Counted from the stretch's first letter, positions 832-58,290 are shown. The stretch is DNA of 64,000 nucleotides from Prevotella sp. (GCA_016291495.1 JAEEXI010000002.1:113880-177879), one strand, 5' to 3'. Made by a program: numbers and translations. Notes: generated by a model from the letters alone, not told the origin.

Positions 832-1968
832 ATGAAAAGAACAATTGTCATTACTGGTGGCGCAGGCTTTATTGGAAGCCATGTGGTGCGCCTGTTCGTG
901 AACAAGTATCCTGATTACCACATCATCAACCTCGACAAGTTGACCTATGCGGGTAATCTGGCAAACCTCAAGGACGTTGAGAACAAGCCCAACTACGAGT
1001 TTGTGAAGATGGATATCTGCGATTTCGACGCTTTTTACAAGCTGATGCAGGTCAAGAAGGTTGATGGTATCATTCACCTCGCTGCTGAGAGTCATGTGGA
1101 TCGCTCGATCAAAGACCCGTTTACGTTTGCCAAGACCAACGTCATGGGTACGCTGTCATTGCTTCAGGCCGCTAAGCTCTATTGGGAGTCATTGCCGGAG
1201 CGTTACGAGGGCAAGCGCTTCTACCACATCTCCACCGATGAGGTGTATGGCGCCTTGGAGTTGACACACCCTGAGGGTATCGAGCCTCCATTCACGACAA
1301 CTGCCTCGAGTGCTGAGCATCATTTGGCTTATGGCGACAAGTTCTTCCTGGAGACTACGAAGTACAATCCCCATTCACCCTACAGTGCCGCGAAGGCCTC
1401 TTCAGACCACTTTGTTCGTGCTTATCACGACACCTACGGTATGCCCGTCATCGTGACGAACTGCTCGAACAACTACGGTCCTTATCAGTTTCCTGAGAAG
1501 CTGATACCGTTGTTTATCAATAATATCCGTCACCGCAAACCGTTGCCTGTCTATGGCAAGGGTGAGAACGTGCGCGACTGGCTGTTCGTAGAAGACCACG
1601 CCCGTGCCATCGACTTGATTTTCCATCAGGGTATGATTGCCGAGACGTATAACATCGGTGGTTTCAATGAGTGGAAGAACATCGACATCATCAAGGTGGT
1701 CATCAAGACCGTCGACCGTCTGTTGGGGCGTAAGGAAGGCGAGGATATGGATCTCATCACTTTCGTGACCGATCGTGCAGGACATGATCTTCGTTATGCT
1801 ATCGACTCGTCGAAGTTGCAGAAGGAACTTGGGTGGGAGCCTTCGCTTCAGTTCGAGGAAGGTATCGAGAAGACCGTCCGCTGGTATCTCGACAACCAGG
1901 AGTGGCTCGACAATGTCACCTCCGGCGACTACCAGAAGTATTATGACAATATGTATGCTAACCGATAA
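832..1968 (+). CDS. rfbB: dTDP-glucose 4,6-dehydratase
   Basis: TGGAGFIGS, LDKLTYAGN, AAESHVDRSI, ISTDEVYG, YSAAK, NNYGPYQFPEKLIP. Confidence 0.97.
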   Translation: MKRTIVITGGAGFIGSHVVRLFVNKYPDYHIINLDKLTYAGNLANLKDVENKPNYEFVKMDICDFDAFYKLMQVKKVDGIIHLAAESHVDRSIKDPFTFAKTNVMGTLSLLQAAKLYWESLPERYEGKRFYHISTDEVYGALELTHPEGIEPPFTTTASSAEHHLAYGDKFFLETTKYNPHSPYSAAKASSDHFVRAYHDTYGMPVIVTNCSNNYGPYQFPEKLIPLFINNIRHRKPLPVYGKGENVRDWLFVEDHARAIDLIFHQGMIAETYNIGGFNEWKNIDIIKVVIKTVDRLLGRKEGEDMDLITFVTDRAGHDLRYAIDSSKLQKELGWEPSLQFEEGIEKTVRWYLDNQEWLDNVTSGDYQKYYDNMYANR

Positions 1969-1980
1969 AACAAAAACGAT

Positions 1981-3162
1981 ATGAAGAAAATCTTATTACT
2001 GGGAAGTGGAGAGTTGGGAAAGGAGTTCGTCATTGCTGCCAAGCGCGCTGGTGCCTATGTGGTGGCTTGTGACCGTTATAACGATGCGCCTGCCATGCAG
2101 GTGGCTGACGAGCGTGAGGTATTCTCCATGCTCGACGGCGATGCCCTGACGGCTGCCGTCAAGAAGCACAATCCCGATATCATTGTGCCTGAGATTGAGG
2201 CCATCCGTACAGAGCGTCTCTTCGATTTCGAGAAAGAGGGCATACAGGTCGTTCCTTCTGCCCGTGCCGTCAATTTCACGATGAACCGTCGTGCCATCCG
2301 CGACCTTGCCTCTCGTGACTTAGGACTCCGTACCGCCAAGTATTTCTATGCCAAGACGTTCGACGAGTTCAAAAAGGCTGCTGACGAGATTGGTTTCCCC
2401 TGTGTGGTGAAGCCTCTGATGTCGTCCTCTGGTCATGGTCAGAGTTATGTGCATAACGACGACGAGTTGGAGCAGGCTTTCAGGGAAGCCATGGAAGGCA
2501 GCCGTGGTGACGTGAAAGAAGTCATCATCGAGGAGTTCATCGACTTCGAGTCGGAGTTTACCTTGCTGACAGTGACGCAGAAGAATGCACCTACCATCTT
2601 CTGTCCTCCTATCGGACATGTACAGAAGGGTGGTGACTACCGTGAGTCATGGCAACCTTATCAGATCAGTGACGAAGCCCTCAAGCAGGCACAGAACATG
2701 GCCGACCAGGTGACGAAGGCCCTTACTGGATATGGCATCTGGGGTGTCGAGTTCTTCCTGACCCGCCAGGGTGAGGTTATCTTCTCTGAGCTTTCGCCTC
2801 GTCCACACGATACAGGTATGGTGACGTTGGGTCATACCACCAACCTCTCCGAGTTTGAGTTGCATTTCCGTGCTGTGATGGGTCTGCCGATTGCAGGTAT
2901 CCATCTGGAGCATGCCGGAGCCTCTGCCGTCATCCTCTCACCAGAGGAGAAGGTAGGTCCCCTGGATTACAATTTCGTTGAGGCATTGAAGGAAGACCGC
3001 ACCCGTATCCGCATCTTCGGCAAGCCTGAGGCGCATGTTGGTCGCCGCATGGGTGTCGTCCTCTGCTATGGTGAGCTGGGCGACGATGTCAATGCCCTGC
3101 GTGACAAGGCTAAGCGTCTTGCCAAGACCGTATTGGGAACAGATCCTTATATGAAGAAATGA
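1981..3162 (+). CDS. purT: Formate-dependent phosphoribosylglycinamide formyltransferase
   Basis: [49 protein letters not shown]. Confidence 0.96.
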
Positions 3163-53628: not shown

Positions 53629-54903
53629 TCACTTTCCCACGCAGAAGTGCTTGAAGATGTTCCCTAATACTTCGTTGGGAGTAATCTGGCCGCCCGTGAT
53701 TTCGGCAAGGGTACTGAGGGTGAGGCGGAGGTCCTCGCTGAGCAGGTCGCCGCTCAACTGCGACTGCAGACCGTCGAGGACGCGCTGGAGATGCTGTCGG
53801 GCACGGACGAGCGCCTCGTAGTGGCGGGCGTTGGTGACGATGACGTCGTTGTCGGCGGTCTTGGGAGCGGCGGCGGTCAGTTGCTGGCGCAGTTGGTCAA
53901 GGCCCACGCCGAACTTGGCTTGGAAATTGTCGGTCTTGTTCTCGATGCGGATGACGGTCTGGTCGTCGCGGACGGGAATGTCGGGGTAGGGCACGCCGGG
54001 CTCGGTCATCATCAGGATAATCCGGGCACGCTGGGCGGCAGCCATCGAGCGCTCGATGCCGAGGTTCTCAATCTGGTCGTCGGTATGGCGGATGCCGGCG
54101 GTATCGATGAAGCGGAAGGTGACGCCGCCGAGCTGAATGGTGTCTTCGATGGCATCGCGGGTAGTGCCCTGTATGTCGCTGACAATGGCGCGCTCTTCGC
54201 CCAGCAGGGCATTGAGCAGCGTGCTCTTGCCTACGTTGGGCGCTCCGACAATGGCCACGGGAATGCCGTTCTTCAGGGCGTTGCCGACTTCGAAAGTCTG
54301 AGCAAGATGGGTGATGTGGGCATCGATGGTCTGTGTAAGTTGCAATAGTTCCGAGCGGTCGGCAAACTCGAGGTCCTCATGGTCGGAGAAGTCGAGTTCG
54401 AGTTCCAACAGGGAAGTGAGTTTCAGCAGTTGTTCCCTCAGGCGGCTGAGCTCCGTGGAGATGCCGCCCCGCAGTTGGCTCATGGCCAAATGGTGCGTCG
54501 CCCTGTTGGACGAGGCAATGAGGTCGGCCACGGCTTCGGCCTGCGAGAGGTCCATCTTGCCATTCAGGTAGGCGCGCTGGGTAAACTCACCGGGGCGGGC
54601 CATGCGGCAACCGTTCTTGATCAGCAGTTCCAACACCTTATTTAATATATATAGGGAACCGTGGCAGGAAATCTCCACACTATCTTCGCCCGTATAGGAG
54701 TGGGGAGCACGGAATACGGCGACCATCGCCTCGTCAATCACTTCCTCGCCATCCTTGATGCGGGTAAACCTTGTCGTGTTTGCTGCGACCCGGTCGCAGC
54801 TGATAGAACAGAGAGAAGAGACGGTGGTGAAGGCATCAGGGCCAGAAACCCTGATGATTCCCAATGCTCCGCCAGGAGCCGTTGCCAGAGCGCAAATAGT
54901 CAT
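53629..54903 (-). CDS. mnmE: tRNA modification GTPase
   Basis: GEDSVEISCHG, GEFTQRAYLNGK, GAPNVGKS, GTTRD, DTAG, NKTD, FCVGK; start taken at the ATGA overlap. Confidence 0.97.
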   Translation of the reverse strand: MTICALATAPGGALGIIRVSGPDAFTTVSSLCSISCDRVAANTTRFTRIKDGEEVIDEAMVAVFRAPHSYTGEDSVEISCHGSLYILNKVLELLIKNGCRMARPGEFTQRAYLNGKMDLSQAEAVADLIASSNRATHHLAMSQLRGGISTELSRLREQLLKLTSLLELELDFSDHEDLEFADRSELLQLTQTIDAHITHLAQTFEVGNALKNGIPVAIVGAPNVGKSTLLNALLGEERAIVSDIQGTTRDAIEDTIQLGGVTFRFIDTAGIRHTDDQIENLGIERSMAAAQRARIILMMTEPGVPYPDIPVRDDQTVIRIENKTDNFQAKFGVGLDQLRQQLTAAAPKTADNDVIVTNARHYEALVRARQHLQRVLDGLQSQLSGDLLSEDLRLTLSTLAEITGGQITPNEVLGNIFKHFCVGK

Positions 54904-55199
54904 TTCTTCTTGGTCCATGTATTGGCAAAGATAACACCGACTACGGTAATGGCAATGAAGATGGCGGTAGCCACCAATAGCGAATCCTTATTATCGCCGA
55001 TAAGGGGGAGAATGGCGCAAAAGGCGGCGGTAATCACCATCAGAATGGCCATGACAATTCTGAGTCGCTTGATATCGACTTTTGCCCGCTCTTCCTCGCT
55101 GGCGGTATTATAGCCCGCAATGAGCATATCACCTTTACCCATCAGAAGGACGATGGCAAGGACGAGAAAGAGGATTGCTAATACGATACTCACAATCAT
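54900..55199 (-). CDS. DUF3784-like small membrane protein
   Basis: KGDMLIAGYNT motif, three hydrophobic segments. Confidence 0.78.
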   Translation of the reverse strand: MIVSIVLAILFLVLAIVLLMGKGDMLIAGYNTASEEERAKVDIKRLRIVMAILMVITAAFCAILPLIGDNKDSLLVATAIFIAITVVGVIFANTWTKKK

Positions 55200-56076: not shown

Positions 56077-57906
56077 TTATTTGTTTTTAGTTAGATATAT
56101 GTTTTCCGCTTGGCGGATGGCTTTTTCCTGTTGGTGGATGGCGAGATACAACTCGTTCTGCAACTTTTCGTTGTCGAGAATCTCGCGGGAGAGCGCTGTC
56201 CGCTCTTTGTCAGTAGCCTTGGGATAATACTTCCGGCTCTTCTCCAAGGCAAGAACGGTTTGCTCGTAACGCTGGCGTAGCTTGACGAGTTGCTGGTAAC
56301 GCTCCTGGTTTCCGGCTGCCTTGAAGTCTTTTACCTGATGATAGACAACCTGATCGTTGATGACTAAGGAGAAGTCTGAGTGCTTTTCCTTCGGTTGTGT
56401 CTTAGCCTGTCGCAGTCGCTTGACTGCCTCCTTGTATTGCTGTTTGTCATCCCATGTCATACTGATGCTGTCGATACGGGCAAAGCCGGCAATCTGCTCT
56501 GGCGTGTATTGCTCTGCATCATAGGTCTGGTATTTCTCCGCAGGGATGAAAGTGTAGACGCATACCATACTGTCAGGCTGGTTGCGGTCAGAGGCGAAGA
56601 AACCCAATTGGTTGTATTCGTCAATGGCAAACAGATAGTCATTGGCGGTAGAGTTGAAAGGCATGCCGATGTTCTCTGGCTTGAGGAACCTGCCTTCCGA
56701 AGCATCATAGGTAGTCATAAACAGGTCGTAGCCACCGATACTTCCTTCGCCCTCAGCGGCAAAATAGAGTGTCGTCCCGTCGGGCATCATAAAAGGATAG
56801 TTGAGGTGCTGCAGTTGCCTGTCGCTATTGATGCCGGCCAAGGTATCTGCGGCAGTCCACTGTTGTTGGAGCAGCTCCTGTGAGTAGATGCAGCTGTCGT
56901 TCCCGGCATAGAGACAACGGTTGTTGAGCGCATTCATAAATGCTATTGCCTTGGAGGCTTTCTTAGGGAAGAAAGTCGAGTAGGGGGCGATGCGTCCAGC
57001 CTCCGGTGTCAGATGGTAGGCCTTCAGGAACTGCTCTTTACGCATGACGATGCTGTCGATAAACATAATCCGTTGGGTTGCCATCGTCATTTGTCGCAGA
57101 TGCTCAGACTGTTCCGTCGGCTGCTCTTTTTTCTGTCGGACATGTTTCTTCCGTTGTGCGGGAGCCGTTACGCATACGAGAAGCAACAGCAGCAGGGTGA
57201 TTCGCTGAACCAGTTTGTTGGCTGCCTCCAAAGCATTCCAGATGGAATAGCGTGCCTCCTTATTCATCTCCTGCATCTGTTCGAAGAGTCCGTGGACGGT
57301 GGTGCGGTTGGTGTCGTGCTCATAAGGACATCGCTTCAACTGCTTTTCATAACCCTGTTGCTCCGCATAAGCCTGGATGTCAGCCTCCTCACAAAGACAT
57401 AACGGGCGGATGATAGCCAGTGGCATCTTCTCCATCTCCAGATAGGCGGGCATCGTTGAGAATTGTCCTTGGAAGGTGAGGTTCATCAACGTCGTATGGA
57501 TGATGTCGTCCTGATGATGTCCCAAGGCAATCTTATTACAGCCCAGTTCCTGTGCAAGATTGAAGAGCTGTTTGCGGCGCTGCCAGGAACATAGGAAACA
57601 GGCAGGCTTCTTATCGGAAGGCTCAAAACGGGTGGTGATGACATGAAGGGGAACACCTAAGGCATCACAGAACTGTTGCAGATAAGTGGTGTCTGTCTCA
57701 TACTGGATATTCTCCATCCGTACATGCAAGGCTTCAACGGTGAAGCGCGGAAAGAATACTTTCGATTGTCGGGCAAGCAACTCCAACAGACACAGAGAGT
57801 CTTTTCCGCCAGAGAGTCCTACGAGAATCTTATCACCTTCCTCAATAAGGCGATAGTCACGTAAGGCTTTTCGGAAGCGTTGTTGAAGTCGTTGTCCCAC
57901 ATTCAT
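56077..57906 (-). CDS. ttcA: TtcA-family PP-loop protein fused to a signal-peptide-bearing PD40-like protein
   Basis: SGGKDS, CFLC, GHHQDD, IIRPL; then RITLLLLLLVCVTAPAQ and YPFMMPDGTTLYFA...GGYDLF. Confidence 0.8.
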   Translation of the reverse strand: MNVGQRLQQRFRKALRDYRLIEEGDKILVGLSGGKDSLCLLELLARQSKVFFPRFTVEALHVRMENIQYETDTTYLQQFCDALGVPLHVITTRFEPSDKKPACFLCSWQRRKQLFNLAQELGCNKIALGHHQDDIIHTTLMNLTFQGQFSTMPAYLEMEKMPLAIIRPLCLCEEADIQAYAEQQGYEKQLKRCPYEHDTNRTTVHGLFEQMQEMNKEARYSIWNALEAANKLVQRITLLLLLLVCVTAPAQRKKHVRQKKEQPTEQSEHLRQMTMATQRIMFIDSIVMRKEQFLKAYHLTPEAGRIAPYSTFFPKKASKAIAFMNALNNRCLYAGNDSCIYSQELLQQQWTAADTLAGINSDRQLQHLNYPFMMPDGTTLYFAAEGEGSIGGYDLFMTTYDASEGRFLKPENIGMPFNSTANDYLFAIDEYNQLGFFASDRNQPDSMVCVYTFIPAEKYQTYDAEQYTPEQIAGFARIDSISMTWDDKQQYKEAVKRLRQAKTQPKEKHSDFSLVINDQVVYHQVKDFKAAGNQERYQQLVKLRQRYEQTVLALEKSRKYYPKATDKERTALSREILDNEKLQNELYLAIHQQEKAIRQAENIYLTKNK

Positions 57907-57921
57907 CGTGTCTGATTTCTA

Positions 57922-58290
57922 TCATTTCATGAAAACAAGATAGACCGCACAGATGATCAGAAAGAATGCGAGAATGTGGTTCCAATGCAGATTCTGTCCT
58001 TGGAACATGATATTGGCAATGACGGCGAAAACTCCCAAGGAGATACATTCTTGGATAACCTTCAACTGTACCAGTGTGAAGGGGCCCCCATTACCCTCAA
58101 AGCCCAGACGGTTGGCAGGAACCTGGCAGCAGTATTCAAAGAAGGCAATCATCCACGAAAAGAGGATGACGCCAATGAGCGGCCAGTTGCTGCTGACTCC
58201 CGTCTCTGATAATTTCAAATGCCCATACCAAGCAAGTGTCATAAACACATTGCTTAGTATGAGCAAAATGATGGTATAGAGTCCGTTCAT
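57922..58290 (-). CDS. DMT family protein (DUF486-like)
   Basis: SNVFMTLAWYGHLK, FFEYCCQVPANRLG, QLKVIQE. Confidence 0.88.
   Translation of the reverse strand: MNGLYTIILLILSNVFMTLAWYGHLKLSETGVSSNWPLIGVILFSWMIAFFEYCCQVPANRLGFEGNGGPFTLVQLKVIQECISLGVFAVIANIMFQGQNLHWNHILAFFLIICAVYLVFMK

What the first reader, a model, noticed from the sequence alone, without database searches (positions are those of the whole stretch)
56077..57906. tRNA-thiolation-family enzyme fused through an internal signal peptide to an exported PD40-like protein
Seen: a TtcA-like domain (about 234 aa, ending ALEAANKLVQ near 57205) continues without stop or ATG into RITLLLLLLVCVTAPA-Q, a signal-peptide-like segment, and then a domain with a PD40-type repeat and a coiled-coil tail. 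Inference: either a recent loss of the stop/start junction, or a real membrane-spanning fusion in which signal peptidase could release the periplasmic half and leave TtcA membrane-tethered.
Basis: partly seen in the sequence, partly recalled or inferred. Interest (0 to 1): 0.6.

Follow-up and report, generated by a model that had tools for sequence, protein, structure and literature searches.

The report
tRNA enzyme fused to exported protein
In a group of rumen Prevotella species, a cytoplasmic tRNA-thiolating enzyme and the exported protein encoded next to it have merged into one old, well-conserved gene that keeps the export signal in the middle, so it is probably made as one chain and cut in two at the membrane; that cut has not been shown.

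Summary
Window 56077..57906 (-) is one 609-codon frame: a TtcA-like PP-loop/[4Fe-4S] tRNA thiolase (residues 1-234), then a signal-peptide-like segment (235-250, site APA|Q), then a 359-residue PD40-type protein with a helical-hairpin tail.

It is neither an assembly artefact nor a recent accident.
- The exact protein occurs on 7 contigs from three sources.
- About 33 clusters of 598-627 aa fusions exist, at 67-100% identity.
- At least 14 distinct rumen Prevotella species carry it, including the isolate tf2-5.
- Synonymous sites are saturated, and dN/dS is 0.06 for the N half and 0.10 for the C half.

Most of the genus has two genes, often adjacent and in frame, separated by one stop and 1-4 codons.

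The internal segment keeps signal-peptide geometry: a 15-17 residue hydrophobic core, small residues at -3/-1, and Gln at +1 (the Bacteroidetes Q-rule). No in-frame start codon is conserved before it. One species (G463) deleted the TtcA body in frame, so the TtcA start and first nine residues now form an ordinary N-terminal signal peptide.

Best reading (about 0.5): a two-compartment polyprotein cut by signal peptidase I. Cleavage, topology and internal initiation are untested, and the read check was unavailable. The scan has noted the same kind of fusion on other DNA. Interest is moderate.

The parts
56077..57906 (-). Whole fused ORF, 609 codons plus stop (stop at 56077..56079)
   Evidence: exact protein on 7 public contigs
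57205..57906 (-). TtcA-like tRNA thiolase domain, residues 1-234; the only ttcA-like gene in this genome
   Evidence: Pfam PF01171 and NCBIfam NF007972; aligns to TtuA PH0300, E 1e-16; the only other PP-loop hit in the genome is the 477-aa TilS-like ORF
57796..57813 (-). PP-loop ATP-binding motif SGGKDS, residues 32-37
   Evidence: kept in all 14 fused loci
57589..57600 (-). CxxC (Cys103, Cys106), two of the three predicted [4Fe-4S] ligands
   Evidence: aligned with the CxxC of PH0300 TtuA; kept in all 14 fused loci; role of these cysteines in E. coli TtcA from PMC4081106
57319..57333 (-). Motif holding the third predicted cluster ligand, Cys193 (residues 192-196)
57157..57204 (-). Internal signal-peptide-like segment, residues 235-250: Arg, a 15-residue uncharged and mostly hydrophobic stretch, Ala at -3 and -1
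   Evidence: homologous to the N-terminal signal peptide of stand-alone relatives
57154..57159 (-). Predicted signal peptidase I site, between Ala250 and Gln251 (Q-rule site)
   Evidence: small-x-Ala|Gln in 30 of 33 fused clusters and in most split ones; Q-rule from PMC5837995 and PMC10653852
57121..57156 (-). Lys/Arg-rich start of the predicted mature protein (residues 251-262); absent in the 598-602 aa sub-clade
56080..57156 (-). Predicted mature exported protein, residues 251-609; member of a large family of stand-alone Bacteroidales proteins of unknown function
   Evidence: 612 representatives at E<=1e-30, typical length 380-480 aa; AF2 model with mean pLDDT 94
56527..57075 (-). Beta-rich domain with PD40-type blades (partial propeller), residues about 278-460
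   Evidence: TolB blades by Foldseek; half-propeller and 5-bladed propeller matches, Z about 9; PD40 hit at 370-397 = 56716..56799
56086..56310 (-). C-terminal antiparallel helical hairpin (coiled-coil tail), residues about 533-607
57229..57231 (-). In-frame TTG (Leu226), the only candidate internal start close to the hydrophobic run; not conserved
   Evidence: TTG in 9 of 11 fused loci, CTG in L017, TTA in L018

Best explanation
This is a natural two-compartment polyprotein. Shown: ttcA and the downstream gene for an exported PD40-type protein have merged through loss of the ttcA stop, the short spacer and the downstream ATG. The fused frame is old and conserved, both halves are under purifying selection, and the former N-terminal signal peptide survives intact as an internal segment. 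Inferred: translation starts at the ttcA ATG and the TtcA domain folds in the cytoplasm. When the very hydrophobic Leu-rich segment (residues 236-250) emerges, it is targeted, probably by SRP, to SecYEG and inserts N-in/C-out, and the C half is threaded into the periplasm. Signal peptidase I then cuts after Ala250, and Gln251 is cyclised by glutaminyl cyclase as in other Bacteroidetes exported proteins. TtcA is left carrying a 15-residue hydrophobic C-terminal tail. It is then either membrane-tethered or released after the tail is degraded.
For: Fusion is real and recurrent. Ancestral two-gene state with one stop and 1-4 codons, in frame. Age and selection: dS about 1.5 (saturated); dN/dS 0.06 (N core), 0.10 (C core), 0.16 (tail), 0.22 (junction). 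TtcA catalytic motifs are kept in all 14 fused loci, and this is the only ttcA in the genome. Signal-peptide geometry is unchanged between 33 fused and 75 split clusters: hydrophobic core 15-17 residues, not lengthened to a transmembrane anchor, small residues at -3/-1, Gln at +1. Gln at +1 is only useful if the site is cut (Q-rule, PMC5837995 and PMC10653852). No in-frame ATG/GTG/TTG before the hydrophobic run is conserved across fused loci. In G463 the TtcA body (about residues 10-236) is deleted in frame from a fused gene 89% identical to P0018, so the C half there is translated from the ttcA ATG, with TtcA residues 1-9 acting as the n-region.
Against: There is no experimental or proteomic evidence for export or cleavage. 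The first 12 mature residues carry net charge about +4 against about +2 on the cytoplasmic side of the hydrophobic run, which runs against the positive-inside rule; stand-alone relatives share this feature. Several fused lineages do have an in-frame Met just before the hydrophobic run, and the window has an in-frame TTG at Leu226, so separate initiation is not excluded. Six stand-alone gene calls (P0038-P0044) nest inside the fused clade in the C-half tree. The fused and split states therefore interconvert, or arose more than once, which fits a nearly neutral fusion. The G463 evidence is a single assembly.
Confidence: 0.5

Rival explanations
1. Two proteins from one frame by internal initiation. 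Ribosomes start independently inside the 3' end of the ttcA part (TTG at Leu226 in the window; Met in other lineages) and make an ordinary precursor with an N-terminal signal peptide. TtcA is then either made as a read-through fusion that is a tolerated by-product, or is also processed.
For: The window has an in-frame TTG ten codons before the hydrophobic run, which would give a normal n-region with Lys and Arg. Several fused lineages carry Met directly before the run. Bacteroidetes start sites need no Shine-Dalgarno sequence (own knowledge). Fused and split forms are intermixed in the C-half tree.
Against: No start codon is conserved at any one position: L017 has CTG and L018 has TTA at the Leu226 position, and neither has another start before the run. 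In split relatives the start sits in an A/T-rich spacer that is gone here. In G463 the whole 3' end of ttcA is deleted, yet the C half stays in frame with the ttcA ATG. Without a stop codon, every ribosome that starts at the ttcA ATG still makes the full fusion.
Confidence: 0.2
2. Uncut bitopic membrane protein. The hydrophobic segment acts as a permanent signal anchor, with TtcA on the cytoplasmic face and the PD40 domain on the periplasmic face of one polypeptide.
For: The topology argument is the same as for the best explanation. A folded 234-residue domain immediately upstream might hinder signal peptidase access (inference).
Against: The hydrophobic core stays at 15-17 residues, short for a stable anchor. 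The -3/-1 small residues and Gln at +1 are kept as strictly as in cleaved-type stand-alone relatives across saturated divergence, which is not expected if the site were never cut.
Confidence: 0.15
3. Tolerated, functionless fusion. The C half is no longer exported and is dead weight, or the ORF is an assembly or sequencing artefact.
For: TtcA is dispensable in E. coli (own knowledge), and G463 has lost it. The two genes are unlinked in many Prevotella species, so no functional coupling is required.
Against: dN/dS is 0.10-0.16 for the C half across 14 fused species, and no frame-breaking change occurs. The signal peptide is kept. The identical protein appears in independent assemblies from three sources, and the fusion is present in an isolate genome (L017).
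Confidence: 0.05

Closest known systems
FbcH cytochrome b/c1 precursor of Bradyrhizobium japonicum (Thony-Meyer et al., Cell 1989; PNAS 1991; cited from my own knowledge, not found in the paper library)
   Same: One bacterial gene encodes two mature proteins. The second is preceded by an internal signal peptide that is cut by signal peptidase after membrane insertion.
   Different: In FbcH the upstream partner is a polytopic membrane protein of the same complex, and processing is shown experimentally. Here the upstream partner is a soluble cytoplasmic tRNA enzyme with no known link to the downstream protein, and processing is only inferred.
TtcA, tRNA 2-thiocytidine(32) synthetase of E. coli (PMC4081106), and TtuA PH0300 (PDB 3VRH/5MKO)
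   Same: PP-loop SGGKDS, a CxxC plus a third Cys as [4Fe-4S] ligands, similar length (about 235 aa), and no TtuA-type zinc fingers.
   Different: It scores below the NCBIfam equivalog cut-off (163 against 272 bits). The last two residues of the stand-alone Prevotella form are replaced by the junction. It carries a C-terminal hydrophobic extension and a second protein.
Stand-alone Bacteroidales PD40/helical-hairpin proteins (for example the 389-393 aa genes in L002 and L003, and P0247); more distantly TolB and the propeller part of PorE
   Same: The mature sequence is alignable end to end (35-74% identity). The N-terminal signal peptide has the same Ala|Gln site, and the gene often sits next to ttcA.
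   Different: They have their own ATG and are separate genes. Longer members add N-terminal TPR repeats. They have no OmpA-like domain as in PorE. The propeller in the model is only partial, unlike the six blades of TolB.
Earlier notes of this scan on other genomes: EpmB-lipoprotein fusion (e1-5221410), PelX-PelA hydrolase fusion (e1-5287772), signal-peptide-like helices in giant fused proteins (e1-5067180)
   Same: A cytoplasmic enzyme is joined in frame to an exported protein through the retained signal peptide.
   Different: The gene pairs and phyla differ. These are unchecked AI notes, not published cases.

Membership tests
TtcA (NF007972, tRNA 2-thiocytidine(32) synthetase) | PP-loop ATP pyrophosphatase motif SGGxDS | tested here: met
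   SGGKDS at residues 32-37; PF01171, E 2.8e-19
TtcA (NF007972, tRNA 2-thiocytidine(32) synthetase) | Three Cys ligands of the [4Fe-4S] cluster (Cys122, Cys125, Cys222 in E. coli; PMC4081106) | tested here: met
   Cys103, Cys106 and Cys193 align with the CxxC and the third Cys of TtuA PH0300 and are kept in all 14 fused loci. Not aligned directly with the E. coli protein.
TtcA (NF007972, tRNA 2-thiocytidine(32) synthetase) | Score over the curated equivalog cut-off (272 bits) | tested here: not met
   163.3 bits and 166.7 bits. It is best called TtcA-like; the target nucleoside is not established.
TtcA (NF007972, tRNA 2-thiocytidine(32) synthetase) | s2C32 formation in tRNA | not testable with these tools
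   Needs LC-MS of tRNA nucleosides
Sec/signal peptidase I signal peptide (Bacteroidetes Q-rule type) | Basic n-region, 7-17 residue hydrophobic core, small residues at -3/-1, Gln at +1 | tested here: met
   Lys232/Arg235, a 15-residue core, Ala248/Ala250, Gln251; own script, no SignalP
Sec/signal peptidase I signal peptide (Bacteroidetes Q-rule type) | Located at the N terminus of the translated product | tested here: not met
   It begins at residue 235 of the ORF, and no conserved start lies before it
Sec/signal peptidase I signal peptide (Bacteroidetes Q-rule type) | Actually cleaved, with the downstream part exported | not testable with these tools
   Needs proteomics or reporter fusions
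PD40 / TolB-type beta-propeller | PD40 repeat over the Pfam gathering score | tested here: not met
   18-19.3 bits against 20.9 in the window protein. Family members P0338 (27.3) and P0264 (21.7) pass.
PD40 / TolB-type beta-propeller | Closed six-bladed propeller | tested here: inconclusive
   The AF2 model (pLDDT 94) has about 12 strands, roughly 3-4 blades. The best fold matches are partial: TolB with 138-205 aligned columns and TM about 0.25; a three-blade designed half-propeller and five-bladed GH43 enzymes at Z about 9.
PorE (NF052230, T9SS) | Full TPR + propeller + CRD + OmpA_C architecture, with a score over the 600-bit cut-off | tested here: not met
   51 bits, and only residues 369-460 match. 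No OmpA-like domain.
FbcH-type bacterial polyprotein | Internal signal peptide between two complete protein units in one ORF | tested here: met
FbcH-type bacterial polyprotein | Post-translational cleavage into two stable proteins | not testable with these tools
   No proteomic data available

The most novel reading that the evidence does not exclude
The fusion is an obligate, selected device. Signal peptidase I cuts it, the PD40 protein goes to the periplasm, and TtcA stays bound to the inner membrane by the leftover signal peptide. That would make it a naturally tail-anchored Fe-S tRNA-thiolating enzyme made in 1:1 stoichiometry with an envelope protein. It would also be a genetically simple natural model for internal signal-peptide processing in Bacteroidota.
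Probability: 0.2. Interest if true: 0.65.

Novelty: new variant of a known kind. Interest (0 to 1): 0.5.

Why it matters
Bacterial genes that encode a cytoplasmic enzyme and an exported protein in one chain, joined by a working signal peptide, are rarely documented. The textbook case (FbcH) joins two membrane-complex subunits. Here the same principle seems to have been reached by trivial mutation between two unrelated neighbouring genes and then kept for a long time. The clade also supplies natural controls. Split relatives carry one stop codon at the junction. There is a cultured isolate with the fusion. One species deleted the enzyme and turned the internal signal back into an N-terminal one. 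That makes several questions directly testable in Bacteroidota: how far a folded upstream domain is compatible with Sec targeting, whether signal peptidase I cuts internal sites, and what happens to a cytoplasmic enzyme left with a signal-peptide tail. For annotation, these ORFs should not be called TilS or a single-function protein.

Tried and rejected
Independent assemblies were used instead.

DNA around the six stand-alone gene calls nested in the fused clade (P0038-P0044):
- The metagenome scan with P0040 gave only 34-36% relatives.
- Three 400-genome draws of the genus held no close split form.
- So single versus multiple origin, or reversion, stays open.

N-half tree: poorly resolved, and in conflict with the C-half tree. 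It was not used for the origin question.

A conserved internal start codon was looked for and not found.

A recent pseudogene-like fusion is rejected by dN/dS and by the saturated dS.

Fold searches with Foldseek against PDB and VIA wide gave only generic propeller-blade and coiled-coil matches, so the C half gets no functional assignment.

The FbcH papers are not in the library and are cited from memory.

A full-length structure prediction was not run, because without PAE it would not bear on cleavage.

Full report
OBSERVATION

Window 56077..57906 on the minus strand is a single 609-codon frame.
- Residues 26-185 match the PP-loop family PF01171 (E 2.8e-19).
- Residues 4-229 match the NCBIfam TtcA model (E 7e-48, 163 bits, under its 272-bit equivalog cut-off).
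- The PP-loop SGGKDS (32-37), a CxxC (103-106) and a third Cys (193) are present. They align with the ATP site and [4Fe-4S] ligands of TtuA PH0300. In E. coli TtcA the three equivalent cysteines are essential (PMC4081106).
- After residue 234 the frame runs on, without a stop or ATG, into Arg235 and 15 uncharged, mostly hydrophobic residues that end Ala-Pro-Ala. Gln251 and a Lys/Arg-rich stretch follow.
- A 359-residue part comes next. It has a weak PD40 hit (370-397) and a PorE-like match (369-460, E 7e-14).

WHAT THE C HALF IS

A search of 1.84 billion representatives found 612 relatives at E<=1e-30. Nearly all are stand-alone proteins of 380-480 aa. The longer ones carry N-terminal TPR repeats.

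An AF2 model built on 126 sequences is confident (mean pLDDT 94). It shows three parts:
- a short alpha/beta start;
- a beta-rich domain of about 12 strands;
- a long C-terminal antiparallel helical hairpin.

Foldseek and VIA-align give only generic matches: TolB blades, a designed three-blade half-propeller, five-bladed GH43 enzymes, and coiled-coil hairpins. It is therefore a periplasm-type PD40 partial propeller with a coiled-coil tail. Its function is unknown. It is not PorE: it scores 51 bits against a 600-bit cut-off and has no OmpA domain.

IS THE FUSION REAL, AND HOW COMMON IS IT?

- The exact protein is on 7 contigs from NCBI, JGI/IMG and Logan, and near-identical members are on more.
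- About 33 clusters (at 90% identity) of 598-627 aa fusions exist, at 67-100% identity.
- Among GTDB species representatives, the uninterrupted frame is present in ten rumen Prevotella besides the window's genome. These include the isolate Prevotella sp. tf2-5 (L016-L025).
- Later draws added more (G092, G585, G578). Together this gives 14 distinct fused sequences with DNA in hand.
- In an even draw of 400 species of the genus, only four plus the window's own genome had it.

The fusion is thus confined to one clade.

ANCESTRAL STATE

Relatives with the same gene order (gltD-like, ttcA, PD40 gene, nucleoside-phosphorylase-like gene, mnmE) have two genes.
- ttcA ends with a conserved Lys-Leu-x-Glu-Tyr/Glu C terminus.
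- Then come one stop and 1-4 codons, often in the same frame.
- The PD40 gene then starts with ATG and a classical signal peptide ending Ala|Gln.
- In other species the two genes lie on different contigs, so linkage is not obligatory.

In the window, the TtcA C terminus is kept up to Lys-Leu-Val. The last two residues, the stop, the spacer and the ATG with the first n-region residues are gone.

AGE AND SELECTION

Across the 14 fused loci, synonymous sites are saturated (median dS about 1.5). Median dN/dS is as follows:

| Region | dN/dS |
|---|---|
| TtcA core | 0.06 |
| Junction and hydrophobic segment | 0.22 |
| Linker | 0.24 |
| C-half core | 0.10 |
| Helical tail | 0.16 |

The catalytic motifs are kept in all 14 loci. 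The fused gene is the only ttcA-like gene in the genome; the other PP-loop hit is TilS. Both halves are therefore functional, and the fusion is old. This rules out an artefact or a fresh stop-codon loss.

THE INTERNAL SEGMENT STILL LOOKS LIKE A CLEAVED SIGNAL PEPTIDE

In 33 fused and 75 split clusters the features are the same:
- the hydrophobic run is 15-17 residues;
- small residues sit at -3 and -1, with Ala at -1 almost always;
- Gln sits at +1.

The run has not lengthened into a typical membrane anchor. In Bacteroidetes, Gln at +1 of signal peptidase I substrates is cyclised after cleavage and stabilises the exported protein (PMC5837995, PMC10653852). Its retention makes sense only if the site is cut.

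HOW THE C HALF IS TRANSLATED

No in-frame ATG, GTG or TTG before the hydrophobic run is conserved.
- The window's TTG at Leu226 is CTG in tf2-5 and TTA in L018. Those two loci have no other candidate start.
- Some lineages do have a Met just before the run, so internal initiation cannot be excluded everywhere.

A natural experiment bears on this. In G463 (95% complete) the homologous ORF is 89% identical to the fused P0018 over residues 237-612. Its N terminus, however, is TtcA residues 1-9 joined directly to the hydrophobic run. An in-frame deletion removed the TtcA body and the whole 3' end of ttcA. The ttcA start now drives an ordinary N-terminal signal peptide. G463 has no other ttcA. This shows that the C half is the part that had to stay expressed and exportable. 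It also shows that expression from the ttcA start is sufficient. It rests on a single assembly.

MECHANISM PROPOSED

The proposed steps are all inferred:
1. Translation starts at the ttcA ATG.
2. TtcA folds in the cytoplasm.
3. The Leu-rich segment is captured co-translationally and inserts N-in/C-out in SecYEG.
4. The C half is translocated.
5. Signal peptidase I cuts after Ala250.
6. Gln251 is cyclised.
7. TtcA keeps a hydrophobic tail and is either tethered or trimmed.

Points against this reading:
- The mature N terminus is more basic than the cytoplasmic flank. Split relatives share this, and one fused sub-clade has lost that stretch.
- There are no protein data.

Rivals are internal initiation (0.2), an uncut bitopic protein (0.15), and a functionless fusion or artefact (0.05).

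OPEN POINT

In a quick maximum-likelihood tree of C halves, all fused forms fall in one fully supported clade. Six stand-alone gene calls (P0038-P0044) fall inside it too. This means one of three things:
- the fusion arose more than once (the junctions differ in length by 1-2 residues and in sequence);
- some lineages re-split;
- those calls have another cause.

Their DNA could not be fetched. The N-half tree is unresolved and conflicts with the C-half tree. Two types of TtcA N terminus occur among fused genes, which suggests recombination inside ttcA.

COMPARISON AND NOVELTY

The closest established precedent is the FbcH cytochrome b/c1 precursor of Bradyrhizobium, cut at an internal signal peptide (my own knowledge). 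Here the upstream unit is a soluble tRNA enzyme unrelated to the downstream protein. This scan has already noted the same kind of fusion on other DNA (EpmB-lipoprotein, PelX-PelA), so the phenomenon may be more common than the literature suggests. I rate this a new variant of a known kind, of moderate interest. Its value lies in the built-in natural controls and in a cultured host.

Noticed in passing
L105 (G463:C121), ORF 1495..2868 (-): A relative has deleted TtcA residues about 10-236 in frame from a fused gene. The TtcA start plus nine residues now serve as the n-region of a normal signal peptide. That genome has no ttcA at all.
   Followed up: yes
window 57832..57906 (-) and the same part of L016, L017, L072: Two distinct types of the first 25 or so TtcA residues occur among fused genes. 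They do not follow the C-half tree; for example L016 is the closest overall relative but has the other type. This suggests homologous recombination within ttcA between Prevotella species.
   Followed up: partly
L018, L022, L023, L024 (598-602 aa forms); corresponds to window 57100..57156: One fused sub-clade has lost the Lys/Arg-rich stretch that follows the predicted cleavage site, which leaves a near-neutral mature N terminus. This may be an adaptation to the N-in topology forced by the fusion.
   Followed up: no
P0289, P0338 and loci L053-L068: Longer members of the C-half family (470-490 aa; Muribaculaceae and Bacteroidaceae) carry N-terminal TPR repeats before the PD40 part, recalling the front half of PorE-like proteins.
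   Followed up: partly
P0130, P0148, P0154 and others: JGI names the stand-alone Prevotella TtcA-like proteins 'tRNA(Ile)-lysidine synthase TilS/MesJ'. This looks like over-annotation from the shared PP-loop, because the real TilS is a separate 440-480 aa gene.
   Followed up: partly
window 57922..58290 (-) and 54900..55199 (-): Two small hydrophobic ORFs (122 and 99 aa) are packed into the same co-directional gene string. The first ends 15 bp before the ttcA ATG and is absent from the syntenic locus L002. The second overlaps both neighbouring genes by a few bases.
   Followed up: no
L032, L036, L037: Contigs that carry Prevotella-type C-half genes (46-48% identity) are filed under Firmicutes names (Acutalibacteraceae, Oscillibacter, Vescimonas). 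This is probably bin contamination.
   Followed up: no
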